DNA of 64,000 nt from Candidatus Omnitrophota bacterium (GTDB lineage Bacteria; Omnitrophota; Gorgyraeia; 1-14-0-20-64-10): positions 124,824 to 188,823 of the forward strand of contig JAHFFE010000002.1 in assembly GCA_023248155.1 (NCBI GenBank). The letters are read 5' to 3'. The position numbers and the translations under genes were made by a program. Under the pieces are notes generated by a model. That model had not been told where the DNA came from. It did not search any database and saw only the letters and a list, made by a program, of their open reading frames with translations. Shown here piece after piece: positions 28,541 through 62,560 of the stretch (position 1 is the first letter of the stretch; each line of letters starts with the position of its first letter).

Positions 28541-28830
28541 GAGTCGGCTCGGGCATGGGAGCCGTGGACACGCTCGGAATCGACTACCGATTCCGTCGCT
28601 CTGTCTGCGGCCTTGCCGAAGAACAATTCGATTCGGCCTTCGCCAAGGTCCACTGGCCCCATATCCCGAACCGCCTCTTATCACGCAGGCGCTTCGGGTG
28701 ACGCGGGCGGGAGAGGCCTTCGCCGCCACGCGCGCAGCGAAGCGAGCACGGACGGCGGAGAGTGTCCCCGAGCGGCAGGACCCGAAGCGACGGAGATTGA
28801 TGATATCCCGGGCCGACTCGTTGGTAACAG
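28541..28830. repeat. Copy 1 of a ~290-bp structured intergenic repeat element with imperfect terminal inverted repeats (MITE-like or structured-RNA-like)
   Basis: A ~245-bp core (28556-28800) is ~97% identical to 62291-62531. Flanks are inverted (gagtcggctcggg ... cccgggccgactc). Internal hairpins include cggaatcg-actac-cgattccg, ccgtcgct...agcgacgg and cgcttcg..cgaagcg. The overlapping ORFs 28524..28862 and 28508..28837 are spurious. Confidence 0.8.
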
Positions 28831-48985: not shown

Positions 48986-49892
48986 ATCCCGCCTATCGGG
49001 CGCGGGTAATTCCGGCGACCCGTGGCTGCGCCGCTTTTTCGATTATCTTCGGGTGGAGCGCGATGGTTCGCCGCATACGCATCGCAATTACGAAAAAGAT
49101 TTGACGCTGCTCAAGCAGGCGTCCGGCGGCAGGACCTGGGCGCAAATGGATCTGCTGACGCTGCGGCAGTTCGTCGCGCAGCAGCGGTCCGGCGGCCTTT
49201 CCAAATCAACGGTTGCGCGGCGCGTGGCCTCGATCCGTTCCTTCTTTCGTTATTTAAGCAGGGAAGGACTGATCAGTTCCAATCCGGCGCTGGGCTTGAC
49301 GCGTCCCAAACAAGACAAACATCTGCCGTCGTTTCTCAGTCAGGAGGAAGCGACCCGTCTGGTGGAAGCGCCCGCCGGAGATTCATTCGCGGCGCGCCGC
49401 GACAAGGCGATTCTCGAAACGCTTTATTCGACCGGTCTGCGCGTCAGCGAGCTGGTCGGATTGAAAATCCGCGATGTCGATTTGATCGGCGGTTCGCTGC
49501 GGACTATCGGCAAGGGACGCAAAGAGCGGCTGGTGCCGGTCGGTTCCTACAGTATCAAGGCGATCCGCGATTATCTGAAACGTTTGCGCCCGGCCGATGC
49601 TTCCCCCGAGAAAACATTGTTTCAAAACCAGCGGCACGGTCCTCTGACGGATCGCTCGGTCCGCCGCATTTTAAACCGGTATCTGACCCAGGTTCAGGTT
49701 CAAACGCGCATCTCACCCCATTCGCTGCGGCATTCGTTCGCGACGCATTTGCTGGACCGCGGCGCCGATCTGCGCGCCGTTCAGGAACTGCTGGGACACA
49801 GCTCGCTTTCCACGACGCAGGTCTATACGCATGTGACCACCGACCGGTTGAAGAAAGTATACGACTCGGCTCATCCGCGTGCGCGCAAATGA
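48978..49892 (+). CDS. xerC: Tyrosine site-specific recombinase XerC/XerD family
   Basis: Catalytic R..HxxR..Y region (..LRHSFATHLLDRGADLRAVQELLGHSSLSTTQVYTHV..). The annotated ORF start at 48954 overlaps the topA end; I prefer ATG 48978. Confidence 0.8.
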   Translation: MAESRLSGAGNSGDPWLRRFFDYLRVERDGSPHTHRNYEKDLTLLKQASGGRTWAQMDLLTLRQFVAQQRSGGLSKSTVARRVASIRSFFRYLSREGLISSNPALGLTRPKQDKHLPSFLSQEEATRLVEAPAGDSFAARRDKAILETLYSTGLRVSELVGLKIRDVDLIGGSLRTIGKGRKERLVPVGSYSIKAIRDYLKRLRPADASPEKTLFQNQRHGPLTDRSVRRILNRYLTQVQVQTRISPHSLRHSFATHLLDRGADLRAVQELLGHSSLSTTQVYTHVTTDRLKKVYDSAHPRARK

Positions 49893-51205
49893 TTTTAATA
49901 GCCGGTCTCTGGATCTATCAATTCGGCTTCGGTGTATTTGGATTTTTATACCTGTTGATCCGGACGATGCGCGGCCGGCCGATGCCCGGGCTTCGCGAAC
50001 GGCTGGCAATTTATTCGTCCGCGCAGAAAGAACAGTTGAAGAAATTGCGCCGGCCGCTCTGGATGCAGCTGGTATCGGTAGGCGAAGTGGTGGCCGCCCA
50101 GCCGTTGATTTTGCGCATGAAGGAGCGGTTTCCCGACAGTGATTGGGTAGTTACGACGGTCACTCCGGCGGGCCGCGCCGTGGCCGAAAAAAATCTGGCG
50201 CCGCTGGGTGTTTGCGTATTGTATCTGCCGTGGGATTTTCAGCCGATTACGGCCCGCGCCATTCGCATCATCCGGCCTGCGCTTTTCCTGTCGTTCGAAA
50301 CGGAGCTTTGGCCGGTGCTGTATTACCAGCTGGAAAAAGCCGGCGTTCCGGTCGCCGTTGTTAACGGACGGATTTCTGCGCGCGCTTATCCACGGTATCT
50401 CTGGGTTCGTTTTTGGATGGAGCGGTTCCTGCATCCGGTGCAGCTGGTGTTGGCGCAGACGCCCCAGGATGCGCGGCGATACGCAGCGCTCGGCGCCGCG
50501 AAAGACCGGATCGGGATCGCCGGAAATATTAAATGGGATTTGCCGGTGCCTGCGCCGGTTGATTCCGCCGAACAGGCGCGCCGCCGTAAATTATTGGGCG
50601 TTTCAGTTCAGGACTGTCTCTGGATCGCCGGCTCGACGCATCCGGGCGAGGAAGAAATTATTTTGCGCGTCTATCGCCGGCTGAGAGAATCGTTTCCGGG
50701 TTTGCGATTGGCGTTGGCGCCGCGGCATACAGACCGGACGGAAACAATCGGCCAGCTGGTTGAAAAAGAGGGCCTGCGCTGGGTGCGCAAAACGGCATTG
50801 AAGGATTCCTCTCCGGTTTCCGCCGGCACGGTGGTCCTGGTGGATACGGTCGGCGAATTGACGGCGCTCTATCAGATCAGCGATCTTGTTTTTGTCGGCG
50901 GGTCGCTGGTTCCCAAAGGCGGACATAATTTAATTGAGCCGGCTGTTTTTTCGAAACCGATCATGACGGGGCCGTTCCTGCAGAATTTTCAGGCGATCGC
51001 CGAAGCGCTGCGCGCCGGCGGCGGACTCGCTGTGGTTTCCGGTGAGACTGAATTGGAGAAAACGATTCGCAATTTAATCTCGATGCCAGGCCAGGCAGGC
51101 GAGCTGGGTGAGCGCGCTTACTCGGTTTACCGCGGGAACCAGGGCGCTGTTGACCGGATCTGCGATGCGATTGCGCGGCATTGGGGCAGCAAGCTCTCTA
51201 AATGA
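49889..51205 (+). CDS. waaA: 3-deoxy-D-manno-octulosonic acid (Kdo) transferase
   Basis: KdtA N-terminus (..LWMQLVSVGEV..) and the C-terminal GT-B fold. The annotated ORF 49022..51205 is a read-through over-extension. ATG 49889 overlaps the xerC stop. Confidence 0.8.
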   Translation: MILIAGLWIYQFGFGVFGFLYLLIRTMRGRPMPGLRERLAIYSSAQKEQLKKLRRPLWMQLVSVGEVVAAQPLILRMKERFPDSDWVVTTVTPAGRAVAEKNLAPLGVCVLYLPWDFQPITARAIRIIRPALFLSFETELWPVLYYQLEKAGVPVAVVNGRISARAYPRYLWVRFWMERFLHPVQLVLAQTPQDARRYAALGAAKDRIGIAGNIKWDLPVPAPVDSAEQARRRKLLGVSVQDCLWIAGSTHPGEEEIILRVYRRLRESFPGLRLALAPRHTDRTETIGQLVEKEGLRWVRKTALKDSSPVSAGTVVLVDTVGELTALYQISDLVFVGGSLVPKGGHNLIEPAVFSKPIMTGPFLQNFQAIAEALRAGGGLAVVSGETELEKTIRNLISMPGQAGELGERAYSVYRGNQGAVDRICDAIARHWGSKLSK

Positions 51206-52221
51206 AAAACCGAATCCTCGGATGGATATGGCGATGGTCGCTGGCTCCGGTGCTGGAAGTCGTTTACGCGGCGGGGTTGACGGTCGTCTACGCGCTTTAC
51301 CGGGTCCGGATTTTTCGCAGACACCGCCTTCCGGTGAAGGTGGTCAGCGTCGGGAACCTGACCTGGGGCGGGACCGGCAAAACGCCGCTGGTGCTGTTTC
51401 TGGCGCGGCAGTTAAAACAACGGGGATGGCGCGTCGCCGTTCTGACGCGCGGATATGGAAAAGATGAGTCACGGCTTTTAACCGAAAGGCTGGCGCCGAT
51501 TCCGGTGCTGGTCGGACCGGACCGTCTTGCCAACGGAAAAAAAGCGATTGAACAGCACAACGCCAATCTGCTGTTGCTGGATGACGGGTATCAGCAGTGG
51601 CGTTTGATCAAAGACATTGAAATACTGATGGTGAATGAAGGGTCTCCGTGGGGCAACGGCCATTTGATTCCTCGCGGAATTTTGCGTGAACCGATTTCGG
51701 CCGGCCGGCGCGCCGACCTGGTGGTGATGAAACAGTCCAGCCCCGATCCTTCGGCGGCCGTCTGGACCGAGGTCCATCTGCGGGCCGCTTTAATCGATGC
51801 GCCGTTGTTTCAGATGGGCTATACCGTCGCGACGCTGCGGGAATGGCCGGGCAGGGCAACGCTGCCGCCGTCGTCGTTAAAAGGGCGGCGCGTGGCCACG
51901 CTGGCCGGTATCGCCGGACCCACCCAGTTTGAAGCGACGGTTCGTTCTTTGGGGGCATCGGTTCCGGTTCATTTCCGCGTGCGCGACCATCATCCGTACA
52001 CGGCCCAGGAATTAGTCCGGATGGTTCAGCGCTGTCAGCGCAATCAGATTGACAGCTTGGTGACCACCGCGAAAGATGCGGTCCGTTTGCACGGTTTTTT
52101 CATGGATTTTCTGAAAGAGCGCGCGCCGCAGTTTAAAATTTTGATTATTGAAATTGAACCCTGGTTTAAACCTGATGAAAGCCAACTTTTACACCGAATC
52201 GATACTTTACTCGCTCGCTAG
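51202..52221 (+). CDS. lpxK: Tetraacyldisaccharide 4'-kinase
   Basis: P-loop VVSVGNLTWGGTGKTP. Length 339 aa. Follows waaA. Confidence 0.85.
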   Translation: MKNRILGWIWRWSLAPVLEVVYAAGLTVVYALYRVRIFRRHRLPVKVVSVGNLTWGGTGKTPLVLFLARQLKQRGWRVAVLTRGYGKDESRLLTERLAPIPVLVGPDRLANGKKAIEQHNANLLLLDDGYQQWRLIKDIEILMVNEGSPWGNGHLIPRGILREPISAGRRADLVVMKQSSPDPSAAVWTEVHLRAALIDAPLFQMGYTVATLREWPGRATLPPSSLKGRRVATLAGIAGPTQFEATVRSLGASVPVHFRVRDHHPYTAQELVRMVQRCQRNQIDSLVTTAKDAVRLHGFFMDFLKERAPQFKILIIEIEPWFKPDESQLLHRIDTLLAR

Positions 52222-54181
52222 GGGCATCAGCGCTCTCGCGCAGAAGCTTCCGCCGCGCTGGAACTGCCGGCTGGGCGCCGGCGCCGGTACGCTTTTGTAT
52301 TGGACGCTCGGTTCCCGCAAGCGGGTCGCGCGCGATAATCTGCGCGCCGCGTTTCAATCCACCTACACGCCGCAGCAATACGAACAAATTCTGCTGAAAA
52401 TGTTTCAGAATTTCGGGCGGACCTTCATGGAAATCGCCGCCATGCCCAGTATTGACCGGGCTTATCTGGACCGCTGGGTTGCCGTCGATCCCCAAAGCAG
52501 GGAACGGCTGGATGCGCAGATGGCCCTGGGCAAGGGAATTATTTTTGTCACCGGTCATTTTGGAAATTGGGAAATGGTGAGCGTTACTTCTGCTTTGCAC
52601 GGATTGCCGTTGATTATTTTGGTTCGCCAGCAGGGCTGGCCCCGGCTGAACCGCTTATTGACTCAATACCGGGAATCCAAAGGGTGCCAGGTGGTCACTA
52701 AAGGATTCGCGATTCGGGAAATGGTTCAGGGATTAAAAGAGAAACAGTTTATCGGGATTCTCGCGGATCAGGATGGAGGCCCCAACGGGGTTCTGGCGGA
52801 CTATTTGGGCCGTATCTCTTCAACGGCGGCGGGCCCGATCGCCTTGCATTTAAGCAGCGGGGCCCCGGTCATTCCGGCGTTTATGGTTCGGCAGAAGGGA
52901 CCTTTCCACCAAATGATGCTCGAAGAGCCGCTGGTTATTCCGCAACAGGGAACCGAGCAGGAACGGCTTCAAGCCGGAATTGCCGCTTATTTGGCTGTTC
53001 TTGAAAAATATGTGCGGGCTTATCCGGAACAGTGGCTCTGGCTTCATCGCCGCTGGAAATCGTGCCCCGAACGGCGCGTTTTAATTTTCAACGATGGGAA
53101 AGCGGGCCATCTCAGCCAATGCCTGGGTCTGGCCGACCGGATTGAAACGGCCTGGAACAAGAAAATGGCCGGCGATCCCCGATTAAAAATTCTTCCGGTC
53201 CACCGTCCGCTGGTTTCGACGCGCGTGGTCGAGGTTCGTTACCGGCATCCGTTTTGGAAACCGCTGCTTTCGTGCGTGGCGGCATTTTCGGGAAAACATC
53301 CGTCCGGCGGCGACAAATGGCTGCGCCGGGCGCTTACGCCGGAAAGTTATAAATCAATGGCGTCGCTCCATGCCGATATTTCGATCTCGTGCGGTTCTTC
53401 GTCAGCGCCGGTCAACCGGTTGTGGGCCGGCCTGATCCGCTGCAAGACCGTTCATTTGACGAAAAATAAGAGGCCTTCCTGGAAATCGTTTGATCTGGCG
53501 GTTCTTCCGGCGCATGATTTCGAGAAACCACCTTCGCAGAAAAAACTGGTTCTCACCGATCTGGCGCTGGCGCCCCGCCGCCATTTTTCTCCGGCGCAGG
53601 TTTCTGCCTGGCGTGCCGCGCTGGGGTTACGCGCTTCGCGCGTGATCGGGCTGATGCTGGGCGGATCGGCTCCGCCGCTGGTTTGGACGACCGAACAGAT
53701 TGCCCAAATCGTCGAACAGCTAATCCAGTTTGCCGAGCGGCACGATGCCGAATTTCTGGTCACCAGTTCCCGTCGTACCGGTGACGCGGCGGAAGCGCTT
53801 CTGGAAAAACTGTTGAAGAAAAATCCGCGCTGCCGGCTTCTGACACTGGTTGGACGGAACGATCCGGATCGGCTGAAGAGCACCTCGGAAGCGGTCGATG
53901 CGATTTTGGCCTGCGCGCAGAGGGTGGTTGTTACGGGCGACTCGATCTCAATGGTTTCCGAAGCGGCCGCGCTGGGAATCGGTACCGCTGTGATTTTTCC
54001 TCCCGATGCATTGGCAGGGAATTCAAAACAGCGCCGGTTCGCCGCGCGGTTGGAACAGCGGCGAAAAATACGCGTTTCCGGTCCGGACGGTGTTTTAACT
54101 CTGCTTGAAGAAATTGCGCTGATGCCGCCGGCCGGGAGTGAGACAATGGAATTGGAGGAGTTTTTACGGAAATGGCTTTAA
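52175..54181 (+). CDS. Fusion: lipid A biosynthesis (Kdo2-lipid IVA) acyltransferase LpxL/HtrB family (N-terminal) plus ELM1/DUF1022-like domain (C-terminal)
   Basis: The N-terminal ~300 aa show the LpxL family architecture (..DNLRAAF.., ..VTGHFGNWE.., ..HRRWK..). The C-terminal ~370 aa (..RVLIFNDGKAGHLSQCLGLADRIE..) resemble the ELM1/GtrOC1 family. The start is uncertain (52148 or 52175) and overlaps the lpxK 3' end. Confidence 0.6.
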   Translation: MKANFYTESILYSLARGISALAQKLPPRWNCRLGAGAGTLLYWTLGSRKRVARDNLRAAFQSTYTPQQYEQILLKMFQNFGRTFMEIAAMPSIDRAYLDRWVAVDPQSRERLDAQMALGKGIIFVTGHFGNWEMVSVTSALHGLPLIILVRQQGWPRLNRLLTQYRESKGCQVVTKGFAIREMVQGLKEKQFIGILADQDGGPNGVLADYLGRISSTAAGPIALHLSSGAPVIPAFMVRQKGPFHQMMLEEPLVIPQQGTEQERLQAGIAAYLAVLEKYVRAYPEQWLWLHRRWKSCPERRVLIFNDGKAGHLSQCLGLADRIETAWNKKMAGDPRLKILPVHRPLVSTRVVEVRYRHPFWKPLLSCVAAFSGKHPSGGDKWLRRALTPESYKSMASLHADISISCGSSSAPVNRLWAGLIRCKTVHLTKNKRPSWKSFDLAVLPAHDFEKPPSQKKLVLTDLALAPRRHFSPAQVSAWRAALGLRASRVIGLMLGGSAPPLVWTTEQIAQIVEQLIQFAERHDAEFLVTSSRRTGDAAEALLEKLLKKNPRCRLLTLVGRNDPDRLKSTSEAVDAILACAQRVVVTGDSISMVSEAAALGIGTAVIFPPDALAGNSKQRRFAARLEQRRKIRVSGPDGVLTLLEEIALMPPAGSETMELEEFLRKWL

Positions 54182-56376
54182 CCGTTTTGCAGTTGGTCCC
54201 GGCGCTCAAAGGCGGCGGTGTGGAAACCGGTACGGTCGACATGGCCCGCGGTTTAATGGCGCAGGGCCATCGCGCGATCGTTATCTCTTCGGGCGGTCCG
54301 CTGGTCAAGGAACTGGAAGCCGCCGGCGCTATCCATTACACGCTGCCCATTCACCGCAAACTTCCCTGGATTGCGCTCAAACAAGTTCCGCGCGTCGCTG
54401 AGTTAATCGAATCGCATGGCGTCGATGTGATCCACGCGCGCAGCCGTGTTCCGGCGATCATCGGCTATCTGGCGTGGCGGAAAGCCGCCTGCAAAGCCAG
54501 TTTCCGGATGGGCGGCCGGCAGCAGCTGCCGGTTTTTATCACGACGGCGCACGGCTATTATTCCAAACATCCGTTCAGCGCCGTGATGGGCTGGGGCCGG
54601 TGGGTAATCGCCAACTCCGAGAGCATTGCCCGCCATATGATCGATGATTTTCATGTGCCTTCCGATAAAATCCGGTTTATTCCGCGCGGCGTTGACCTTG
54701 AAAAATATCAATGGAGAGAGCCGCGCGCTGAGTCGGTCAAAGGGGATTGGGTTATCAGCTGCATCGGGCGGATCACGCCGATCAAGGGGCACCGCGATTT
54801 AATCCGCGCGTTCGCCGCGGTCGCCAAAACGTTTCCGAAAGCCCGATTGAGGATTATCGGCGGGGCCGACGCGCGCCATCAGAATTATCTTCAGGAACTC
54901 AAACAGCTGGTATTGAAATTAAGTCTGGAAGATCGCGTTGAATTTTCGGGGCATGAGCCGAATATCCCGTTGGCGCTGGCGCAGAGCGATCTGATGGTGC
55001 TTCCCTCGACTTGTCAGGAGGCGTTCGGCCGCGTTTTGATTGAGGCCGGCGCATCCGGCGTTCCGGTGGTCGCCACGCGCGTCGGTGGAATCCCGGAAGT
55101 GATCCTTGACAAGAAAACAGGACTGATCGTTCCTCCTCAGGATCCGGTGGCGCTGGCGTCGGCGATGAACACGCTGTTGAAAGACCGCGCGCTGGCGCTG
55201 ACGCTGGCGCGCGAGAACCGCCGCCGCGTGGAAACCGTTTACCCGATGGCGCGCATGGTCCGCCAGACGATGGAAGTTTATCAGGAAGCCGGCCAGTCGC
55301 TGCGAATTTTGGTGATCAAGCTCAGCGCCGTAGGGGATATCGTGCTGATTACGCCGTCTTTGCGCGCGCTGCGCGACCGGTTTCCCAAGGCGCAGATCAC
55401 CGTGCTGGTCGGCCGCGAAGGCCGCGAACTTCTGCACCGCTGTCCGTATATCGATGATCTGGTTGTTTTTGACCGCGCGCAGAACGGAACTATTGCGGGT
55501 TTGCTGCGGATGGCGCGCCGGCTGCGCGAATCGCAGATTGATCTCGTGATTGATTTTCAGAATAACCGGATCAGCCATTGGCTGGGCCGCCTCTGCGGCG
55601 CGCCGCACCGCTACGGCTGGGCCGGCCGCCGCTGGAGCTGGCTGTTGTCGCATCGCGCGATTCCTCCCGAACAGCCGCTCTCGCCGGTTGACCATCAGTT
55701 CCGTCTGCTGCAGCTGGTCGGTGTTGAATCGAATGACAAACGGCTGGAGCTCTGGCCCGGGCCGTCCGACCAGAGCCGCGTCGATGCATTGCTCAACGAA
55801 TCTTGGGTTGCGCAGCAGCAGCCGCTGGTGGCGATTCATCCGGGCGGAAGCTGGCTTTCAAAACAGTGGCCCGAATCGTATATTCTGGAACTGGTCGACC
55901 GTCTGGCCGGCATTTCAAAAGTACGCGTGATTTTGATCGGCTCGGCGAAAGAACGGCCGATCTGCGACCGGATCCATCATGCGGCGCGCGTCAAACCGGT
56001 GGTAGCCGCCGGCCGGACCTCGCTGAATGAATTGGCCGCGCTGCTGGGCCGCTGCTCGGTTTTTATCGGGGGTGATTCCGCTCCGCTGCATGTGGCGGCG
56101 GCGGCCGGTATTCCGATTATCGCGCTGTTCGGCGCGACCGATCCTTTGCGGCATCTTCCGCCGGCTTCTTCGCTGACGCTGTTAAGGACGCAGTTGCCGT
56201 GCAGTCCCTGCTACCGCCCGAAATGTCCGCGCGTCGGGGCAGGCAAGATGGAATGCATGAAATCAATCACTGTGGAAACGGTCGCACAAACGGCCGCTAA
56301 AATCGTGACCGCTTCTCCGCGCCGCAATCCGGCTGTTTCGCGCGTCGAGACCGATCTGTTTTCCGCGGACAAATGA
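54172..56376 (+). CDS. Fusion glycosyltransferase: GT1/GT4-family glycosyltransferase (N-terminal) plus GT9 ADP-heptose:LPS heptosyltransferase (C-terminal)
   Basis: GT4-like N-terminal half ending ..EAFGRVLIEAGASGVPVVATRVGGIPEVI... Then a heptosyltransferase-like half beginning ..LRILVIKLSAVGDIVLITPSLRAL.. One 734-aa ORF. Confidence 0.7.
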   Translation: MALTVLQLVPALKGGGVETGTVDMARGLMAQGHRAIVISSGGPLVKELEAAGAIHYTLPIHRKLPWIALKQVPRVAELIESHGVDVIHARSRVPAIIGYLAWRKAACKASFRMGGRQQLPVFITTAHGYYSKHPFSAVMGWGRWVIANSESIARHMIDDFHVPSDKIRFIPRGVDLEKYQWREPRAESVKGDWVISCIGRITPIKGHRDLIRAFAAVAKTFPKARLRIIGGADARHQNYLQELKQLVLKLSLEDRVEFSGHEPNIPLALAQSDLMVLPSTCQEAFGRVLIEAGASGVPVVATRVGGIPEVILDKKTGLIVPPQDPVALASAMNTLLKDRALALTLARENRRRVETVYPMARMVRQTMEVYQEAGQSLRILVIKLSAVGDIVLITPSLRALRDRFPKAQITVLVGREGRELLHRCPYIDDLVVFDRAQNGTIAGLLRMARRLRESQIDLVIDFQNNRISHWLGRLCGAPHRYGWAGRRWSWLLSHRAIPPEQPLSPVDHQFRLLQLVGVESNDKRLELWPGPSDQSRVDALLNESWVAQQQPLVAIHPGGSWLSKQWPESYILELVDRLAGISKVRVILIGSAKERPICDRIHHAARVKPVVAAGRTSLNELAALLGRCSVFIGGDSAPLHVAAAAGIPIIALFGATDPLRHLPPASSLTLLRTQLPCSPCYRPKCPRVGAGKMECMKSITVETVAQTAAKIVTASPRRNPAVSRVETDLFSADK

Positions 56377-57401
56377 AAATCGTTCAACCCAAACGGATCC
56401 TGATCGTTGGTCTGAATTGGATGGGCGATCTTCTGCTGTTGACGCCGTCGATCCGGGCGATCCGGAAAAATTACCCTCACGCAACCATCGTTTGCCTGGT
56501 TCCGCCGCGCGGGGAGGCCGTACTGGAAGATAATCCGAACCTGGACCGTCTGATTGTCTATCCCGAATCGCGCGGTTTATCCGGATGGATTGGTTTCTGG
56601 CCGTTGGTCTTTCTTCTGCGTTCTGAACGGTTTGATGCCGCGTTTTTGTTTCATCCATCGGGAACGCGCGCGATGGCGGCCTGGCTTGCCGGCGTGAAGC
56701 AGCGGATCGGTTTTAAAACAAAAAAAGGAAATTGCTGGCTGACCCGGGCTGTTGAGATGCCCTCCAAAGATTCCACGCACAAAGCGGCCGTTTATCTGCG
56801 GCTTGTCGAGGCGGCCGGTTTGAAAACCGACGGTTTTTCCTGTGACGCCGGCATTCGTGATGCCGATGAGCAGGCGGTCGACCGGCTTTACCAACAGATC
56901 GGATTGCGCAGCGACCGTCCGGCCGTGGCGATTCATCCGGCGGCCAACTGGAAATTGAAACGGTGGCCGGCCGAATCGTTCGCGCGCCTGGCCGACCGGC
57001 TCGCGCGGGAGAAACAGGCGCAGATCGTTTTCATCGGAACCAAAAATGAACTGCCGTTGGTTGAACAGGTCCGTTCCCGCATGCAGCACCAGGCGTTCGT
57101 CGCCGCCGGCAAGACCAGCTTCAAGGAACTGGGCGCTTTACTGAAACGGATGAATCTGCTGATTACCAACGATTCCGGGCCGATGCATCTGGCCGCCGCC
57201 GTCGGCACGCCGCTGGTGGGGCTGTTCGGCCCGACGCTGCCGTCGCTCAGCGGTCCGCCGTCCGATCCCCGGTTTAAAACGCTGCACGGTTCCATCGGCT
57301 GCCCGGTGCCGTGCTATCAACTCAACTGTCCGGCGAACTTGTGCATGGAACAGATCTCGCCCGATCAGGTCTTCGCAGAAGCGGAAAAATGGCTGAAATA
57401 A
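56373..57401 (+). CDS. GT9-family LPS heptosyltransferase
   Basis: KRILIVGLNWMGDLLLLTPSIRAI N-terminal signature, C-terminal ..NDSGPMHLAAAVGTP.. motif. Confidence 0.75.
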   Translation: MKIVQPKRILIVGLNWMGDLLLLTPSIRAIRKNYPHATIVCLVPPRGEAVLEDNPNLDRLIVYPESRGLSGWIGFWPLVFLLRSERFDAAFLFHPSGTRAMAAWLAGVKQRIGFKTKKGNCWLTRAVEMPSKDSTHKAAVYLRLVEAAGLKTDGFSCDAGIRDADEQAVDRLYQQIGLRSDRPAVAIHPAANWKLKRWPAESFARLADRLAREKQAQIVFIGTKNELPLVEQVRSRMQHQAFVAAGKTSFKELGALLKRMNLLITNDSGPMHLAAAVGTPLVGLFGPTLPSLSGPPSDPRFKTLHGSIGCPVPCYQLNCPANLCMEQISPDQVFAEAEKWLK

Positions 57402-58369
57402 AAATTCTAATCATCAGCTTAAGCAACATCGGCGACGCGCTGTTGTGTTATCCGGCACTGGAACCGCTTTGGCAGGCCTATCCCGGCGCGCAGACCGATG
57501 TGCTGGCTTCTCCGCGGACGGAAACACTCTATCGATCGGATCCCCGTTTTTCGCGCGTCTGGGTTTTGGAAAAGAAATCCAATATTTTCCGGCAGGCCGT
57601 TCAAGTCGCCCGCTTGAGTTCTCAGCGGTACGCCGTCGTCGTTGATTTCAGAAACTCAATCATTCCAGTCTTTTTGTTCGGCGCGCGCCGTACGCCGATT
57701 TTGCGCGGTTCCGCCCCCGAAGGAATCCACCGCGCGCTGGTCCATCAGGCGCTGGTGAGCAAACTAATGGGCAAGCCGTTATCCGGAAGCGGTTATTCCG
57801 CGCCGGGATTTCCATTCTCAGCCGATGATCTTCGATTCGCGCGGAATCTTCTTGTGCCGGGCAAAACGCCGGTCATACTGGTGCCGGGCGCCCGCAGCCA
57901 TCTGAAACGCTGGCCTTCAGAACGGTTCGCTGTGATTGCCGACCGGTTGATCGACGAGCAGAACGCGCAGATTCTTCTGGTTGGAGAGGCCTCCGAGCAG
58001 CCGATCGTTTCGGCGGTCATGGCCGGGATGCGGCATTCCGCCACGAACCTCGTCGGAAAAACGTCGCTCGCGCAGTTTATGGCGCTGTTGTCGCTGGCGA
58101 AACTGGTGATTACCAACGACAGCGCGTCGCTGCATGCCGCCGAACTGACCGGCGTTCCATCCGTCGCCATTTTCGGGCCGACCGATGAAAAGAAATACGG
58201 CCCGCGCCATCCGCAGTCAATCGTAGTCCGGCGTACGATGATCTGCGCGCCGTGCGAACTGGCGCTTTGCCCGTACCGGCATGAATGCATGGAGTTGATT
58301 CCGGCCGATGAGGTCTACTCCGCCGCCGTGAAAATCCTGAAGAAATCAGAGGATCCGCGTAGGGGATGA
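57389..58369 (+). CDS. GT9-family LPS heptosyltransferase
   Basis: IKILIISLSNIGDALLCYPAL.. and ..NDSASLHAAELTGVP.. motifs. Start ATG 57389 overlaps the previous gene by 13 bp. Confidence 0.7.
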   Translation: MAEIKILIISLSNIGDALLCYPALEPLWQAYPGAQTDVLASPRTETLYRSDPRFSRVWVLEKKSNIFRQAVQVARLSSQRYAVVVDFRNSIIPVFLFGARRTPILRGSAPEGIHRALVHQALVSKLMGKPLSGSGYSAPGFPFSADDLRFARNLLVPGKTPVILVPGARSHLKRWPSERFAVIADRLIDEQNAQILLVGEASEQPIVSAVMAGMRHSATNLVGKTSLAQFMALLSLAKLVITNDSASLHAAELTGVPSVAIFGPTDEKKYGPRHPQSIVVRRTMICAPCELALCPYRHECMELIPADEVYSAAVKILKKSEDPRRG

Positions 58370-59943
58370 TCATCACAACAATAACCATTCAGGATCTTCG
58401 CCTGGCTTGGTTTCGCTTAAAGCAAGATAGGATGGATGGTGGCCCTGATTGGCGTAAGAGATCTTTCGTAAATCATCCGTACTTGATTTCTTTGATTGAA
58501 GACGACCTTGATGTGTGGTTGAGCAATATTTTGACAAAACTACATAGTGGATATCACCCAAATTCGAGTGTTCTATGCCAAGTCCCAAAAGCGTCATGGA
58601 TGATTCGAAACGCTGAAATTATTACTCTAGAAGATGAGGTTGTTTTTAATGCTGTTTTAGCCAAGTTACATCAAGATATTTGGAAACGCATAGGTCTTTT
58701 TCAGGGGGATCCAGATATTGCTTATCAGTTGCAGCCGCCCTCTGAAGATCAGCAATGGATAAAATCTGGCTTAGTTGTATGGGAGGAGTTTAGAGAAAAA
58801 TCTCTTCTGGAATTACAAAAGGGAGCTCAATATGTCCTTTTTGCCGATATTACTGCATTTTATGACAATATTGATCTTCGCCAGCTTCGATCAGATTTGA
58901 ATGATTTGGAAGCAGAGAATTCGTTAGTTCAAACGCTTATGGATTTTCTTACCAAGTGGGATTTTCCTCGAGGCAGGGGGATTCCTCAGGGATATTCGTC
59001 TAGTGATATTTTGGCCAAGATTTACATGTTTACCATCGACCAAACACTTCTACACGAAGGATTCAGGCATTTAAGGTATGTGGATGACATCAGGATTTTT
59101 TGTAAAAACGAGAGTGAAGCGAAGAAAGCCCTGCTCGTTCTAAACAAGATTCTTCACGAAAAAAATCTTAGCTTACAATCTGCTAAAACTATTATTTATT
59201 CCACTGAAGATGCTCGGCGAGAAATATTAAGTGTAGTTTCATTGATACAAGGCTTCCAAAAGCAGATGAAAAAAGAATTGAGTATGGATCCATATGTAAG
59301 TTCTCACGAGGTAGAGGTGCTTATTAAGCAATCTCCTGACAAATTACCCGCCGATTTTTTCGAAGGTATCTTCAGAGAGTATCTTTTAGATAAAAAAGTA
59401 AAATTCAACAAAACGATATTTAGATATGTGATCCACCGACTTGCTGATACAAAGTCAAATATTGCGATTGATTACTGTCTTGATGTATTAGTCGAGCATC
59501 CAGAAGAAACTGAGGATGTCTTAAGGTATTTATCTGCCATAGCTGTGAGGGATGAGCAGCTTGGCAAGCTCTTGGCATATATGAAATCTCAGGATGCACT
59601 TTACGATTATCAGCTCTATCAAATCGTCTCTTGGTTTTTTGAAAGAAAAACTTGCCCACCCACTTTATTGTCATTGTGTCTCGATTGGGCTAGGAATAAA
59701 AACAAAGCGCCATGGTTAAGAACCTATAGTATTGCATTGTTGGGTCTTTTTGGAGCTAGAGCTGAGCTTGATATGATTCGAGGTTTATATAGCGTGGCAA
59801 GTACAGATATTGAGAAAGCAGAAATAGTTATAGCTCTAAAGCGACTGGAAACCAGTCAGCGCAATGCATTTTATAATCAAGTGATTGCTGATGGTGAATT
59901 AATTAAGAGAGCTGTTGTGAAAACCAAAGGTACCAGTAATTAA
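58366..59943 (+). CDS. Reverse transcriptase (RNA-directed DNA polymerase) with C-terminal alpha-helical repeat (HEAT-like) domain; Abi/UG-type, not intron/retron/DGR-like by context
   Basis: RT motifs: 1 PKASWMIRNAEIITLEDEVVFNAV, 2 FADITAFYDNI, 4 GIPQGYSSSDILAKIYM, 5 RYVDDIRIF (YxDD), 6/7 LSLQSAKTII. A C-terminal ~230-aa helical region follows. GC is ~40% against ~60% in both flanking heptosyltransferase genes. The start overlaps the upstream stop (ATGA) and the stop abuts the downstream ATG. Confidence 0.8.
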   Translation: MIITTITIQDLRLAWFRLKQDRMDGGPDWRKRSFVNHPYLISLIEDDLDVWLSNILTKLHSGYHPNSSVLCQVPKASWMIRNAEIITLEDEVVFNAVLAKLHQDIWKRIGLFQGDPDIAYQLQPPSEDQQWIKSGLVVWEEFREKSLLELQKGAQYVLFADITAFYDNIDLRQLRSDLNDLEAENSLVQTLMDFLTKWDFPRGRGIPQGYSSSDILAKIYMFTIDQTLLHEGFRHLRYVDDIRIFCKNESEAKKALLVLNKILHEKNLSLQSAKTIIYSTEDARREILSVVSLIQGFQKQMKKELSMDPYVSSHEVEVLIKQSPDKLPADFFEGIFREYLLDKKVKFNKTIFRYVIHRLADTKSNIAIDYCLDVLVEHPEETEDVLRYLSAIAVRDEQLGKLLAYMKSQDALYDYQLYQIVSWFFERKTCPPTLLSLCLDWARNKNKAPWLRTYSIALLGLFGARAELDMIRGLYSVASTDIEKAEIVIALKRLETSQRNAFYNQVIADGELIKRAVVKTKGTSN

Positions 59944-60978
59944 ATGACTCCGCGGCGGATATTAATCATGCGGACGGACCGGATGGGGGATTTAATCCTG
60001 TCTACGCCGGTATTGCGCACGCTGCGCGCCGCGTTCCCAGACGCGTATTTGGGAATGGCGATTGCCGACGAGTACAAACCGCTGCTGCAGGGACACCCCG
60101 ATTTAAACGCTCTTTTTCTGTACGATAAAAAAGGTGAGCACCGCTCGGCGCTGGGAACTCTGAAATTCGCGCGACAGATTAAAGAACATCGGTTCGACAC
60201 GGCGCTGATTCTCCATTCCACGAACCGCGCTGTTTTGACCGCGGTACTGGCGGGGATTCCTCGTCGGGTGGGTTACGCGCGGCGGCTGGGCTGGCTGTTG
60301 ACCGACGCTGTTCCGTACATTAAATCGGAAGGAACCGTGCATGAAATTGATTACAACCTGCAGTTGGTCAAACGGCTGGGCGTTGAAACGGCGGATCGGA
60401 CCACCTCGGTTGCTCTGGATGCTTCCGCCGAACCTGCCGTCACCCAATTTCTTGCTGAAAACGGATTAACCGGGAAACCGTTTGCCGTTCTGCATCCGGG
60501 CGCCAGTTGTCCGTCGAAACGCTGGCCGGAAGAACGGTTCGCACAATTGGGCGACTGGATCGTCGGGCGGTATCAAATGCCGGTCGTGGTAATGACCGGC
60601 CCTGCCGAACGAACAGCGGGACAGCGCGTGATTGAACGAATGAAAACGCCGGCGGTTTCCGCTGCGGGGCGGTTTAATATCGGCGAGCTCAGCTGGCTTT
60701 TAAAAAAAGCGTCGATTTTAATTTCCAATGACAGCGGCCCGGTTCATCTGGCTTGCGCCGTCGGCACGCCGGTTATTTCCATTTTCGGGCGGTGGGGCGG
60801 CGGGTTAAGCCCCGCGCGCTGGGGGCCTGCCGGTCCGCGTGCCGCCGCGCTGCATCATGATATCGGCTGCCGTCCCTGTCTGGCGCACCGGTGTACAATA
60901 GGATTTGTTTGTTTGCGTGCGGTCACGGTGGAAGAAGCGGCGGCTTCTGTCGATTTTCTTTTGAAGAGTATTGGATGA
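59944..60978 (+). CDS. GT9-family LPS heptosyltransferase
   Basis: RRILIMRTDRMGDLILSTPVLRTL.. and ..NDSGPVHLACAVGTP.. motifs. Confidence 0.75.
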   Translation: MTPRRILIMRTDRMGDLILSTPVLRTLRAAFPDAYLGMAIADEYKPLLQGHPDLNALFLYDKKGEHRSALGTLKFARQIKEHRFDTALILHSTNRAVLTAVLAGIPRRVGYARRLGWLLTDAVPYIKSEGTVHEIDYNLQLVKRLGVETADRTTSVALDASAEPAVTQFLAENGLTGKPFAVLHPGASCPSKRWPEERFAQLGDWIVGRYQMPVVVMTGPAERTAGQRVIERMKTPAVSAAGRFNIGELSWLLKKASILISNDSGPVHLACAVGTPVISIFGRWGGGLSPARWGPAGPRAAALHHDIGCRPCLAHRCTIGFVCLRAVTVEEAAASVDFLLKSIG

Positions 60979-61820
60979 AAAAAACGGTCATTTGGATCGC
61001 GGCGCTTGGACTGGCCGGCGGATGTGTTTCCCCGGCGCAGTTTCATCCGAGGGGAACTGCCGGCGGCACGAAACAAGTTTCTGGGCCGCCCATTGTGATT
61101 GCCGCACCGCTGGCTGAAATCCTGGCAGGGGAAACGCTCGACTATCAAATTTATTATTTCGGAACGCCGGTTGCCACCGCCACGCTGACAACCTCGCCGC
61201 CGTCCGATTTAAAATACAAAGGGCTGGTCGAACTTAAATTTGAATCGCGCGCGCACTGGTATTTGCGGACAATCTATCCGGTCCGGACCATTTTAGTCAG
61301 CTGGGTCGACCCAAAAACCGTTGTGCCCCGCCGTGCCGAGGTCTACATCAAGCGGCAATGGCGTCTTTATCAGGATCAAATCACTTTTGATCATGAACGC
61401 GGCCTGGCGCTGCATAAAATTTCAGGCAAGAAAAGCATCACCGTGCCTATTCCTTCCAATGTGCATGACAGTTTAAGTTTAATCTACTACGCGCGCACCC
61501 TTCATCTGAAGCCGGGGGAGAATTTTCCGGTTCAGGTGACCGCCGATGGAAAAGTTTGGCAGCTGACCGCCCAGGCCAAACAAGCCGGAATAATCCGCGT
61601 TGGCCGCGCCGGTTATTTTCCGGCGATTGAAACGGAAATGGAGCTGGCCTACCCGATCCCGTTTTTTAACGGGGCCAACGCTCAAATCTGGTTCAGCGCC
61701 GACGGCAACCATATTCCGCTCGTGATTAAATTGAAGTCCCGCTTTGGTCCGGTCAGCGCTGTTTTGGCCAAGCGAACGGTGGTGTCGGAAGATAAAAACG
61801 ATAGTGAGGAGGGTAAATAA
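60975..61820 (+). CDS. Lipoprotein, DUF3108-like
   Basis: Lipobox LAGGC after a signal peptide. DUF3108-like core (..YQIYYFGTPVATATL..). Confidence 0.5.
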   Translation: MKKTVIWIAALGLAGGCVSPAQFHPRGTAGGTKQVSGPPIVIAAPLAEILAGETLDYQIYYFGTPVATATLTTSPPSDLKYKGLVELKFESRAHWYLRTIYPVRTILVSWVDPKTVVPRRAEVYIKRQWRLYQDQITFDHERGLALHKISGKKSITVPIPSNVHDSLSLIYYARTLHLKPGENFPVQVTADGKVWQLTAQAKQAGIIRVGRAGYFPAIETEMELAYPIPFFNGANAQIWFSADGNHIPLVIKLKSRFGPVSAVLAKRTVVSEDKNDSEEGK

Positions 61821-62263
61821 TGGAAGCGTCTCAAGAAAAAAGCTGGATTTCGCTGCTGCTGCGCATTGCGGTGGCTTCGTTGTTTATCGGTGCCGTGGTC
61901 CCGAAATTCCGAGAAGGCATGGATCTCGTCGCGGCATTTCAAGGAATGTTCCAGGGAACCTGGCTGCCGATGCCGCTTGTGAAATTGCACGCGCGCCTCA
62001 CGCCCTGGGCGGAATTGTTGATCCCGATTTGGCTCATCAGCGGTTTTCGTCTGCGCTGGGCGTGGCTCTTCACGGGATTGTTCATCATTTCATTGGCATT
62101 CGGCATGATTGTTGCCAAGCAGGGTCCATCGGCTGCCGACAACTATTCTTATTTATTGTTGGCCATTGCCGGGCTTTATTTCAGCCGGTTTGACACGCTG
62201 AATGTGGACGCGATACTAGGCGGAAAAGGCGGCGATTGCTGCGGCGGAACCAGCTGCCACTAA
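61820..62263 (+). CDS. DoxX-like small membrane protein with Cys-rich C-terminal tail
   Basis: Four hydrophobic helices. C-terminus GGKGGDCCGGTSCH. Confidence 0.45.
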   Translation: MEASQEKSWISLLLRIAVASLFIGAVVPKFREGMDLVAAFQGMFQGTWLPMPLVKLHARLTPWAELLIPIWLISGFRLRWAWLFTGLFIISLAFGMIVAKQGPSAADNYSYLLLAIAGLYFSRFDTLNVDAILGGKGGDCCGGTSCH

Positions 62264-62275
62264 ATTAATTGCTCA

Positions 62276-62560
62276 AGAGGCGGCCCGGGCTATGGGGACC
62301 GTGGACACGCTCGGAATCGACTACCGATTCCGTCGCTCTGTCTCCGGCCTTGCCGAAGAACAATTCGATTCGGCCTCCGCCAAGGTCCACTTGCCCCATA
62401 TCCCGATCCGCCTCTTACCACGCAGGCGCTTCGGGTGACGCGGGCGGGAGAGGCCTTCGCCGCCACGCGCGCAGCGAAGCGAGCACGGACGGCGGAGAGT
62501 GTCCCCGAGCGGCAGGACCCGAAGCGACGGAGGTTTGCAGATAAGCCCGGCCCGACTCTT
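62276..62560. repeat. Copy 2 of the ~290-bp structured repeat element
   Basis: 62291-62531 is ~97% identical to 28556-28800, with similar inverted flanks (gaggcggcccgggc ... gcccggcccgactc). The overlapping ORFs 62269..62544 and 62435..62818 are spurious. Confidence 0.8.

What the first reader, a model, noticed from the sequence alone, without database searches (positions are those of the whole stretch)
58366..59943. AT-rich reverse transcriptase gene seamlessly embedded inside an LPS heptosyltransferase operon
A 525-aa ORF carries the full set of RT motifs, including a catalytic YVDD box, and ends in a ~230-aa alpha-helical repeat tail. I see no maturase/endonuclease domain, no flanking space for intron RNA domains or retron msr/msd, and no nearby template/variable repeat pair. 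Its GC (~40%) contrasts sharply with the ~60% GC heptosyltransferase genes on both sides, yet the junctions are exact: ATGA overlap upstream, TAA-ATG abutment downstream. It therefore looks like a horizontally acquired gene co-transcribed with the LPS core genes. The RT-plus-helical-repeat architecture recalls the Abi/UG (defence-associated) RT classes. Placement inside genes that build the LPS core, a common phage receptor, suggests an undescribed RT-based defence or surface-variation function.
Basis: partly seen in the sequence, partly recalled or inferred. Interest (0 to 1): 0.88.

Follow-up and report, generated by a model that had tools for sequence, protein, structure and literature searches.

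The report
UG21 defence-type reverse transcriptase in LPS operon
A foreign, AT-rich reverse transcriptase gene of the known but untested UG21 group sits exactly between two LPS-core genes of an Omnitrophota bacterium, at a junction where related bacteria carry other foreign genes, so the LPS setting looks incidental.

Summary
The 525-aa ORF at 58366-59943 has intact RT motifs (YVDD), an all-helical C-terminal half, about 38% GC against about 58% in the flanks, and exact junctions.

It is not an undescribed kind. It is a full-length member of group UG21 (PADLOC RT_UG21, E = 2.5e-143), a Class 1 UG/Abi reverse transcriptase. Its predicted fold best matches DRT4/UG15, DRT6, AbiK, Abi-P2 and AbiA.

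A relative about 87% identical in DNA has the same operon with the two heptosyltransferase genes overlapping (ATGA) and no RT, so this is a recent single-gene insertion.

The LPS link looks incidental. None of 160 other UG21 loci lies near LPS genes. In 8 Omnitrophota lineages the same junction is empty in 5 and occupied in 3, each time by a different low-GC cargo.

The likely function, by analogy only, is a stand-alone abortive-infection enzyme that makes protein-primed, untemplated DNA and is expressed by read-through from the host operon. No UG21 enzyme has been tested.

Verdict: a new member of a known kind, of modest interest.

The parts
58366..59943 (+). UG21 (Class 1 UG/Abi) reverse transcriptase gene, 525 aa
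   Evidence: ORF. PADLOC RT_UG21 E=2.5e-143, covering profile positions 4-500 of 503; the next best is RT_UG19 at 1e-56. All 34 aligned homologues hit RT_UG21 at E<1e-60.
58366..59235 (+). RT fingers/palm region (residues ~1-290) with motifs A-D. The catalytic YVDD is at nt 59077-59088.
   Evidence: Pfam RVT_1 E=2e-21 over residues 146-279. Invariant D161, G205-I-P-Q-G209, Y238-V-D-D241 and K274. AF2 secondary structure.
59236..59940 (+). C-terminal alpha-helical repeat (alphaRep/HEAT-like) domain, residues ~291-525
   Evidence: AF2 model has 13 helices from H291 to H522 with pLDDT mostly above 90. Full-length Foldseek matches to DRT4/UG15, DRT6, AbiK, Abi-P2 and AbiA. Mestre 2022 reports HEAT-like homology for the UG21 C-terminus.
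58354..59943 (+). Segment absent from the empty-site relative L008 (the insertion). From 58360 it consists of TAGGGG plus the 1578-nt ORF.
   Evidence: blastn: L008 8041-10004 matches window 56391-58353, and L008 10001-12323 matches window 59944-62263. Junction alignment.
58350..58359 (+). Left copy of a possible imperfect direct repeat (AGGATCCGCG). The right copy is ATGACTCCGCG at 59944-59954.
   Evidence: Seen. Not significant as a local alignment (p 0.11-0.18), so suggestive only.
57389..58369 (+). Upstream heptosyltransferase (GT9) gene. Its stop overlaps the RT start. Its C-terminus is changed from ...KILEKIG* (relative) to ...KILKKSEDPRRG*.
   Evidence: Pfam Glyco_transf_9 E=2e-30. Gene call. 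Comparison with L008.
59944..60978 (+). Downstream heptosyltransferase (GT9) gene, starting directly after the RT stop
   Evidence: Pfam Glyco_transf_9 E=9.6e-34. 88% identical to P0124 of the empty-site locus.
49889..62263 (+). Host LPS-core operon that carries the RT: KdtA-like, LpxK, LpxL-ELM1 fusion, GT4-GT9 fusion, GT9, GT9, [RT], GT9, DUF3108, DoxX/MauE-like
   Evidence: Gene calls with Pfam on the identical ENA contig L001. Pfam. The same order occurs in L008 and L169-L175.

Best explanation
The ORF is a stand-alone reverse transcriptase of group UG21, which belongs to Class 1 of the UG/Abi family (an RT core fused to a C-terminal helical-repeat domain).

Shown:
- It entered one Omnitrophota lineage recently as a single-gene, low-GC cassette.
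- It landed exactly at the stop/start overlap between two heptosyltransferase genes of the LPS-core operon.
- That junction is an insertion hotspot for foreign accessory genes in this phylum.

Inferred from the sequence layout:
- The gene has no promoter or flanks of its own, so it is transcribed by read-through of the operon.
- It is probably translated by coupling through the ATGA overlap.

Inferred by analogy only:
- It works like the Class 1 enzymes studied so far (AbiK, Abi-P2, AbiA, DRT4/UG15, DRT1, DRT3b). An oligomer would make DNA without a nucleic-acid template, primed from one of its own hydroxyl residues.
- The invariant Tyr120 in the family-specific PDIAYQL loop is a candidate priming residue.
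- Phage infection would turn this DNA synthesis into growth arrest or death of the infected cell (abortive infection).
- The LPS genes are the landing site and the source of transcription, not functional partners.
For: Identity:
- RT_UG21 E=2.5e-143, full length, 285 bits above the next group. 34 of 34 homologues are UG21.
- All motifs are intact.
- The AF2 model is confident. Its best full-length structural matches are Class 1 UG/Abi polymerases: UG15/DRT4 9l9s/9vdo E~1e-13 to 1e-12, DRT6 9wy8 TM 0.60/0.64, AbiK 7z0z/7r07, Abi-P2 7r08, AbiA 8oz7.

Acquisition:
- Empty site in L008, which is 85-88% identical in DNA with the same gene order and an ATGA overlap.
- The occupied allele appears in three assemblies.
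- GC is 0.385 against 0.582.

Hotspot:
- The junction is occupied in 3 of 8 Omnitrophota lineages by three unrelated low-GC cargos.
- A type II R-M pair sits at the next junction in L169.

Stand-alone, no RNA partner:
- No conserved neighbour among 51 loci.
- No Rfam hit.
- The inserted segment carries only 6 nt before the ATG and none after the stop.

Family behaviour:
- UG21 genes are low-GC islets: median -7.5 points in 90 non-redundant clusters, with the tract covering the ORF plus about 100 nt on each side.

Defence association:
- The arrangement DUF1156-RT-DUF499 (Hma-type system) recurs in three RT subclusters that are only 45-47% identical to each other.
- Some RTs sit beside or in type I R-M operons (L009, L023), next to TIR or KAP NTPase genes.

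Mechanism by analogy:
- Class 1 UG RTs studied so far synthesise DNA without a nucleic-acid template, in several cases protein-primed (PMC13174585; PMC12783706; PMC9508834, abstract).
Against: - No UG21 enzyme has been tested. Mestre et al. 2022 rated its defence association 'inconclusive', and I found no later work.
- Only about a tenth of the immediate neighbours in my sample are recognisable defence genes. Many are housekeeping genes such as ribonucleotide reductase, GMP synthase and tRNA synthetases.
- The DRT4 priming tyrosine is not positionally conserved. hhalign puts it in an insert that UG21 lacks, and puts UG21 Tyr120 in a loop that DRT4 lacks.
- Expression by read-through is inferred from layout only. 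The consensus scans used are weak for a phylum with unknown promoters.
- No transfer vector was identified. There are no UG21 relatives in IMG/VR or phage records, and only one on 72,556 plasmids.
Confidence: 0.6

Rival explanations
1. UG21 has a cellular role other than phage defence, for example in DNA damage tolerance or repair or in nucleotide-pool control. Some bacterial RTs of other families have such roles. This copy would be a transferred accessory gene of that kind.
For: The defence association of UG21 was 'inconclusive' in Mestre 2022. Several UG21 genes sit directly behind nucleotide-metabolism genes: class II RNR in L034, RNR in L045/L051, GMP synthase in L033/L048. A PrimPol-RT fusion protein is reported to contribute to an oxidative DNA damage response in E. 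coli (abstract of PMC12439943).
Against: The patchy, low-GC, single-gene distribution across phyla and archaea is typical of mobile accessory or defence genes. The gene is repeatedly embedded in Hma-type and type I R-M operons. The 3' ends of conserved genes are common island insertion sites (my own knowledge), so those neighbours may mean nothing. Every characterised structural neighbour is an antiphage enzyme.
Confidence: 0.15
2. The RT is a selfish retroelement. It copies its own ORF-sized message and inserts it at gene junctions, which would explain the ORF-only insertion and a short target-site duplication.
For: The insertion is the ORF plus 6 nt. There is a possible imperfect 10-11 nt direct repeat at the ends. 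In the family as a whole the low-GC tract is essentially the ORF plus about 100 nt on each side. 10 of 65 non-redundant loci lie within 30 nt behind a same-strand gene.
Against: The repeat is not significant (p 0.11-0.18). The same junction takes non-RT cargo in L169 and L171, so the site rather than the RT explains the location. Most UG21 genes have more than 100 nt of upstream spacer. I saw only one RT copy per locus, and only one RT ORF in the part of the window I listed (44-64 kb). Characterised Class 1 relatives do not copy RNA. There is no endonuclease or integrase domain.
Confidence: 0.07
3. The RT is functionally coupled to the LPS core genes, for instance by tying an antiphage response or surface variation to receptor synthesis.
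For: It is co-oriented with both GT9 genes and overlaps or abuts them. LPS is a common phage receptor (general knowledge).
Against: 0 of 160 other UG21 loci have GT9, GT4, LpxL, LpxK or DUF3108 homologues nearby. A close relative runs the same operon without the RT. Other lineages carry unrelated cargo at the same junction. There is no template/variable repeat pair or other diversification apparatus.
Confidence: 0.04
4. It is an RNA-templated retroelement RT (group II intron, retron, DGR or a Class 2 DRT) whose RNA partner was overlooked.
For: Weak RT-core similarity to group II intron and retron-type RTs.
Against: Scores are far below the family cut-offs: group II 77 against 300 bits, retron St85 45 against 235, Drt2 47 against 390, Drt3a 66 against 200. 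No Rfam hit at E<=1 on either strand of 50-64 kb. There is no non-coding space, since the insertion is the ORF plus 6 nt. No TR/VR repeats. No maturase or endonuclease domain.
Confidence: 0.03
5. It is an inert passenger: a recently transferred gene that is not functional in this host and is on its way to decay.
For: Extreme GC and codon mismatch with the host. A lineage-specific 7-aa insertion (residues 23-29) falls in a low-confidence loop.
Against: The 525-codon frame is uninterrupted. All 34 family-invariant residues and all catalytic motifs are kept. Identical sequence was recovered from independent samples.
Confidence: 0.05

Closest known systems
UG21 group of Class 1 UG/Abi reverse transcriptases (Mestre et al. 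2022, NAR 50:6084; PADLOC model RT_UG21, filed under DRT)
   Same: Full-length profile match (E=2.5e-143). About 520 aa. RT core plus C-terminal HEAT-like helical repeats. A stand-alone gene with no conserved partner and lower GC than its surroundings.
   Different: Only 46-48% identical to the nearest known members (a singleton branch), and the only Omnitrophota member among the loci and homologues I sampled. It carries a 7-aa insertion at residues 23-29. It has no flanks of its own and is embedded inside an LPS operon.
DRT4 / UG15 (single-gene antiphage RT; PDB 9l9s, 9vdo; Wang et al. 2025, PMC12783706)
   Same: Best structural match over the whole length. It is also a single-gene Class 1 enzyme of about 540 aa with a YxDD box whose two Asp are numbered 240-241. 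This is the likely model for the mode of action: protein-primed random ssDNA and abortive infection.
   Different: About 17% identity. The NCBIfam Drt4 score is 59 bits against a cut-off of 450. The DRT4 priming Tyr125 lies in an insert that UG21 lacks. The trigger (a phage DNA-binding protein) is unknown for UG21.
AbiK, Abi-P2 and AbiA abortive-infection polymerases (PDB 7r06-7r08, 7z0z, 8oz7)
   Same: The same two-part architecture (RT plus helical-repeat domain) and significant full-length fold matches. These are the founding examples of template-independent, protein-primed synthesis.
   Different: Sequence similarity is limited to the palm (E 1e-6 to 1e-11). UG21 has no HEPN domain, unlike AbiA-large. 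The oligomeric state and priming residue are unknown here.
Accessory or defence genes embedded inside conserved operons and integration hotspots
   Same: A foreign defence-type gene sits between conserved co-oriented genes and relies on host transcription. The occupancy of the same site varies between relatives.
   Different: Here the host operon is LPS-core biosynthesis in an uncultured phylum. The insertion is trimmed to the ORF itself.

Membership tests
UG21 (Class 1 UG/Abi RT) | Best, full-length match to the group-specific profile with a clear margin over sister groups | tested here: met
   RT_UG21 476.5 bits, covering profile positions 4-500 of 503. The next best are RT_UG19 at 191 bits and Drt8 at 185 bits. 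The homologue set is 34/34 RT_UG21.
UG21 (Class 1 UG/Abi RT) | Intact RT palm motifs, including YxDD | tested here: met
   D161, GIPQG, Y238-V-D-D241 and K274 are invariant in the family and present here.
UG21 (Class 1 UG/Abi RT) | C-terminal alpha-helical (HEAT-like, alphaRep) domain fused to the RT | tested here: met
   AF2 model: residues 291-522 are all-helical, pLDDT 91.4 overall. Full-length matches to Class 1 structures. Described for UG21 in PMC9226505.
UG21 (Class 1 UG/Abi RT) | Stand-alone gene: no conserved partner gene or ncRNA | tested here: met
   No neighbour is shared across 51 loci beyond close lineages. No Rfam hit. The insertion here is the ORF plus 6 nt.
Defence-associated RT (DRT) in the functional sense | Confers protection against phage | not testable with these tools
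   No experimental data exist for any UG21 member. There is only circumstantial context.
Class 1 UG/Abi mechanism | Nucleic-acid-template-independent, protein-primed DNA synthesis | not testable with these tools
   Inferred from the relatives AbiK, DRT4 and DRT3b. The candidate priming residue Tyr120 is invariant but does not align with DRT4 Tyr125.
DRT4 / UG15 | Score above the NCBIfam Drt4 equivalog cut-off, and a conserved priming Tyr125 | tested here: not met
   59.1 bits against a cut-off of 450. The priming Tyr falls in an insert that UG21 lacks.
Group II intron RT/maturase | RT with maturase (X) domain inside a structured intron RNA (domains I-VI) | tested here: not met
   TIGR04416 scores 77 bits against a cut-off of 300. 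Pfam finds only RVT_1. No Rfam intron hit at E<=1. No flanking non-coding DNA.
Retron | Retron-type RT with an adjacent msr/msd ncRNA | tested here: not met
   Retron St85 RT scores 45 bits against a cut-off of 235. No Rfam hit and no inverted repeats flanking a non-coding stretch.
Diversity-generating retroelement | Template repeat / variable repeat pair near the RT | tested here: not met
   No such direct repeat in 56-62 kb. The only repeats are GT9 paralogue motifs.

The most novel reading that the evidence does not exclude
UG21 genes could be promoter-less 'operon hitch-hikers' with a specific, possibly RT-dependent, way of inserting at the stop/start junctions of conserved co-oriented genes. 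Examples seen here are GT9|GT9, DUF1156|DUF499, and the positions behind HsdM, GMP synthase and RNR. Their expression would then be wired to host operons. A weaker variant is that occupancy of the LPS-operon junction is selected because it ties a defence gene to expression of the phage receptor pathway.
Probability: 0.07. Interest if true: 0.65.

Novelty: new member of a known kind. Interest (0 to 1): 0.3.

Why it matters
- The locus is a clean natural before-and-after pair for the transfer of a single defence-type gene. The same operon exists with and without the RT, so the insertion can be defined almost to the nucleotide.
- Gene junctions of a conserved LPS operon in the uncultured phylum Omnitrophota act as sinks for foreign accessory genes.
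- UG21 was left 'inconclusive' as a defence gene in 2022. The survey here adds circumstantial support: it is repeatedly embedded in Hma-type and type I R-M operons, and it shows a family-wide low-GC islet signature.
- The survey also gives a compact candidate (525 aa, no partner, no RNA) for biochemical study of yet another Class 1 RT.
- It does not reveal a new kind of system.

Tried and rejected
1. ncRNA partner. Rfam at E<=1 on 50-64 kb and at gathering threshold on the whole window, plus a tRNA scan, found nothing.
2. DGR or retron repeats. None found.
3. Target-site duplication. An imperfect 10-11 nt repeat is visible (AGGATCCGCG / ATGACTCCGCG). The local-alignment score is not above shuffled or random-window nulls (p 0.11 and 0.18), so it is kept only as a suggestion.
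4. Conserved partner gene of UG21. None found.
5. LPS neighbours in other UG21 loci. None in 160 loci.
6. Equivalence of UG21 Tyr120 with the DRT4 priming Tyr125. phmmer and profile alignments did not reach the loop. hhalign against a bona fide Drt4 (L176) puts the two tyrosines in different family-specific inserts, so the equivalence is rejected.
DRT4 was recovered instead by tblastn on plasmids. Two of the three sequences fetched (L177, L178) turned out not to be Drt4.
8. Phage or plasmid vector. No UG21 in IMG/VR or phage records, and one haloarchaeal plasmid hit.
9. A first attempt at a distance tree timed out. It was replaced by identity clustering, which is not a real phylogeny.
10. Model coordinates could not be read, so the distance from Tyr120 to the active site was not measured.
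Full report
OBSERVATION

The ORF is real: 58366-59943 on the + strand, 525 aa. GC falls to 0.36-0.41 inside it and returns to 0.55-0.63 on both sides, with the transitions at the ORF ends. The ORF is at 0.385 against 0.582 for the flanks.

The upstream heptosyltransferase (GT9) stop overlaps the RT start (ATGA at 58366-58369). The RT stop TAA (59941-59943) is followed directly by the ATG of the next GT9 gene. One gene caller starts that GT9 39 nt later. The conserved N-terminus in relatives, and the ATGA overlap at the equivalent ATG in relatives that lack the RT, support 59944 as the start.

Pfam finds only RVT_1 in the ORF and Glyco_transf_9 in both neighbours. All palm motifs are intact, including Y238-V-D-D241 at nt 59077-59088, and every family-invariant residue is kept.

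WHAT IT IS

The protein matches the PADLOC profile RT_UG21 over its whole length (E = 2.5e-143, 476 bits). The next groups (UG19, Drt8, UG20, UG22) score about 190 bits or less. All 34 aligned homologues are also RT_UG21.

Curated models for group II intron RTs, retron RTs and Drt2-5 score far below their cut-offs.

UG21 was defined by Mestre et al. 2022 (PMC9226505). It is a Class 1 UG/Abi RT whose C-terminus shows remote HEAT-repeat homology. It has no associated gene, and its defence prediction was rated 'inconclusive'. I found no later experimental work on it.

An AF2 model built on the 34-sequence alignment is confident (pLDDT 91.4, pTM 0.90). It shows an RT core followed by an all-helical domain from residue ~291. 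Its best full-length matches among solved structures are UG15/DRT4, DRT6, AbiK, Abi-P2 and AbiA. Group II intron RTs match the RT core only.

There is no RNA partner. Rfam gave no hit at E<=1 in 50-64 kb and none at gathering threshold in the window, and there are no tRNAs. There is no TR/VR-like repeat.

HOW IT GOT THERE

The host is a Candidatus Omnitrophota bacterium, judging from the source names of the GT9 homologues.

The exact RT protein occurs in an NCBI contig of 351 kb and an ENA contig. A Logan contig from another run is 100% identical across the RT/GT9 junction.

A relative with 85-88% DNA identity (L008) has the same operon: KdtA-like, LpxK, LpxL-ELM1 fusion, GT4-GT9 fusion, GT9, GT9, GT9, DUF3108, DoxX/MauE-like. 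There the two GT9 genes overlap by ATGA and there is no RT. blastn places the break at window 58353|59944. The insertion is therefore about 1.59 kb: the ORF preceded by a few bases.

A possible imperfect direct repeat (AGGATCCGCG at 58350-58359, ATGACTCCGCG at 59944-59954) brackets TAGGGG plus the ORF. It is not statistically secure (p 0.11-0.18).

The insertion also changed the last residues of the upstream GT9 from ...KILEKIG* to ...KILKKSEDPRRG*.

No promoter-like site precedes the RT and no terminator-like site follows it. Expression must therefore come from the operon, probably with translational coupling. This is an inference.

IS THE LPS CONTEXT MEANINGFUL?

I collected 80 UG21-type loci from GTDB species genomes and 80 from metagenomes. 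None has a homologue of the window's GT9, GT4-GT9, LpxL, LpxK or DUF3108 genes within 6-8 kb.

The same GT9|GT9 junction in other Omnitrophota is variably filled:
- Empty in L008, L172, L173, L174 and L175.
- Occupied in L169 by a GIY-YIG gene plus an unknown 263-aa gene (GC 0.44 against 0.62-0.65).
- Occupied in L171 by a 152-aa unknown gene plus a DUF2283/DUF4258 pair (GC 0.55 against 0.71).

L169 also has a type II R-M pair (MTase_II 7e-147, REase_II 7e-52; GC 0.455) at the next junction, GT9|DUF3108. The stretch after DUF3108 carries toxin-antitoxin pairs in L172 and L174.

So the junction is occupied in 3 of 8 lineages by three unrelated foreign cargos. It behaves as an insertion hotspot, and the RT is one passenger. 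Eight lineages is a small sample.

FAMILY BEHAVIOUR

UG21 genes are found in Acidobacteriota, Desulfobacterota, Planctomycetota, Poribacteria, Bacteroidota, Actinomycetota, Chloroflexota, Patescibacteria and haloarchaea.

They are lower in GC than their flanks almost everywhere. The median is -7.9 points in 51 loci and -7.5 in 90 non-redundant clusters. The window is near the extreme at -19.8. The low-GC tract covers the ORF plus about 100 nt on each side, so the gene travels alone.

No neighbour is conserved. Immediate neighbours are a mix:
- Defence genes: type I R-M subunits, TIR, KAP NTPase and PADLOC candidate families.
- Mobile-element genes: resolvases and an integrase.
- Housekeeping genes: RNR, GMP synthase and tRNA synthetases.

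In 10 of 65 evaluable non-redundant loci the RT starts within 30 nt of the stop of a same-strand gene. The window's layout is therefore unusual but not unique.

The arrangement DUF1156-RT-DUF499, an Hma-type system, recurs in six distinct loci. Their RTs fall into three subclusters only 45-47% identical to each other. This is the strongest circumstantial link to defence that I found.

UG21 is absent from IMG/VR and from phage records, and it is nearly absent from plasmids. The transfer vector is unknown.

LIKELY MECHANISM

According to recent work, the Class 1 UG RTs studied so far make DNA without a nucleic-acid template, in some cases primed from a residue of the enzyme itself. Class 2 systems copy an ncRNA (PMC13174585).

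DRT4, the best structural match and also a single-gene system, makes random ssDNA primed from Tyr125. It kills infected cells when a phage DNA-binding protein protects that ssDNA from host exonuclease (PMC12783706).

By analogy I expect UG21 to make untemplated, protein-primed DNA and to act by abortive infection. This step is inferred, not shown.

I tested whether the invariant Tyr120 of UG21 (PDIAYQL) corresponds to the DRT4 priming tyrosine. A profile alignment with a bona fide Drt4 (L176, 686 bits) puts the two tyrosines in different family-specific inserts. Tyr120 is therefore only a candidate. Priming residues also differ in position among other Class 1 enzymes, for example Tyr125 in DRT4 and C-terminal Tyr666 in DRT3b.

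COMPARISON AND VERDICT

This is a member of UG21. Every defining feature I could test is met. It is not a member of DRT4, AbiK/AbiA/Abi-P2, group II intron, retron or DGR families, each of which fails at least one tested defining feature.

The claims of an undescribed system and of a link to LPS are not supported.

Novelty: a new, divergent member (46-48% identity to the nearest relatives) of a known but uncharacterised group, in a new phylum and an unusual, well-resolved insertion context.

Interest is modest at 0.3. The most novel reading still open is that UG21 cassettes target operon junctions by a specific mechanism, or that occupancy of the LPS operon is selected. I put this at about 7%.

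Noticed in passing
window 28545-28819 and 62281-62558: Two copies of a ~278-bp GC-rich dispersed repeat, 94% identical and in the same orientation. The second lies in the gap just after the end of the LPS operon, before the convergent FIST gene. It folds strongly on either strand (about -135 kcal/mol; no shuffle control). There is no Rfam hit, and it is not found in any fetched locus.
   Followed up: partly
window 56373-56376 (junction of the GT4-GT9 fusion gene and the first GT9); L008 6935-8038: Relatives L008, L169, L171, L172 and L173 carry an extra ~367-aa GT4 glycosyltransferase gene at this junction. The window and L174 lack it. It has host-like GC (0.579 in L008), so this looks like a gene-sized loss or gain at an exact junction, unrelated to the RT.
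   Followed up: partly
L169 7317-9069 (GCA_016201735.1): A type II restriction-modification pair (N6_N4 methylase plus Tsp45I-like endonuclease, GC 0.455) is inserted between the third GT9 gene and DUF3108 of the same LPS operon in another Omnitrophota genome.
   Followed up: yes
L010/L093/L094, L092, L095, L132, L133, L134 (and L002-L005): UG21 RT genes are embedded between the DUF1156 methylase and the DUF499 ATPase of Hma-type systems, with gaps of 4-16 nt. The RTs belong to three subclusters only 45-47% identical to each other. In L002-L005 the locus also holds QatB/QueC-like, KAP NTPase and SNF2 helicase genes.
   Followed up: partly
L034 2612-7963; L045 and L051 (-1 gene); L033 and L048 (-1 gene); L024 6142-7971: Several UG21 RTs sit 2-56 nt behind the stop of large conserved genes on the same strand: an intein-containing class II ribonucleotide reductase, Hymenobacter RNR, GMP synthase and a class II tRNA synthetase. 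This may reflect island insertion at the 3' ends of conserved genes. A link to nucleotide metabolism was not tested.
   Followed up: partly
window 58432-58452 (RT residues 23-29, MDGGPDW): A 7-residue insertion is present in this RT and absent from all nine compared UG21 relatives. It falls in the least confident N-terminal part of the model (block pLDDT 64).
   Followed up: no
window 52148-54181 and 54172-56376: Two fusion proteins are conserved in the Omnitrophota LPS operon: a lipid A acyltransferase fused to an ELM1-like domain (677 aa), and a GT4 glycosyltransferase fused to a GT9 heptosyltransferase (734 aa).
   Followed up: no
L177 901-2529 and L178 901-2529 (Rhizobium and Sphingobium plasmids): These 542-aa plasmid RTs were fetched while looking for DRT4. 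They are not Drt4 (83 bits against a cut-off of 450). They carry an HSYRL motif in the same pre-motif-A region as UG21's IAYQL. Their UG group was not determined.
   Followed up: no
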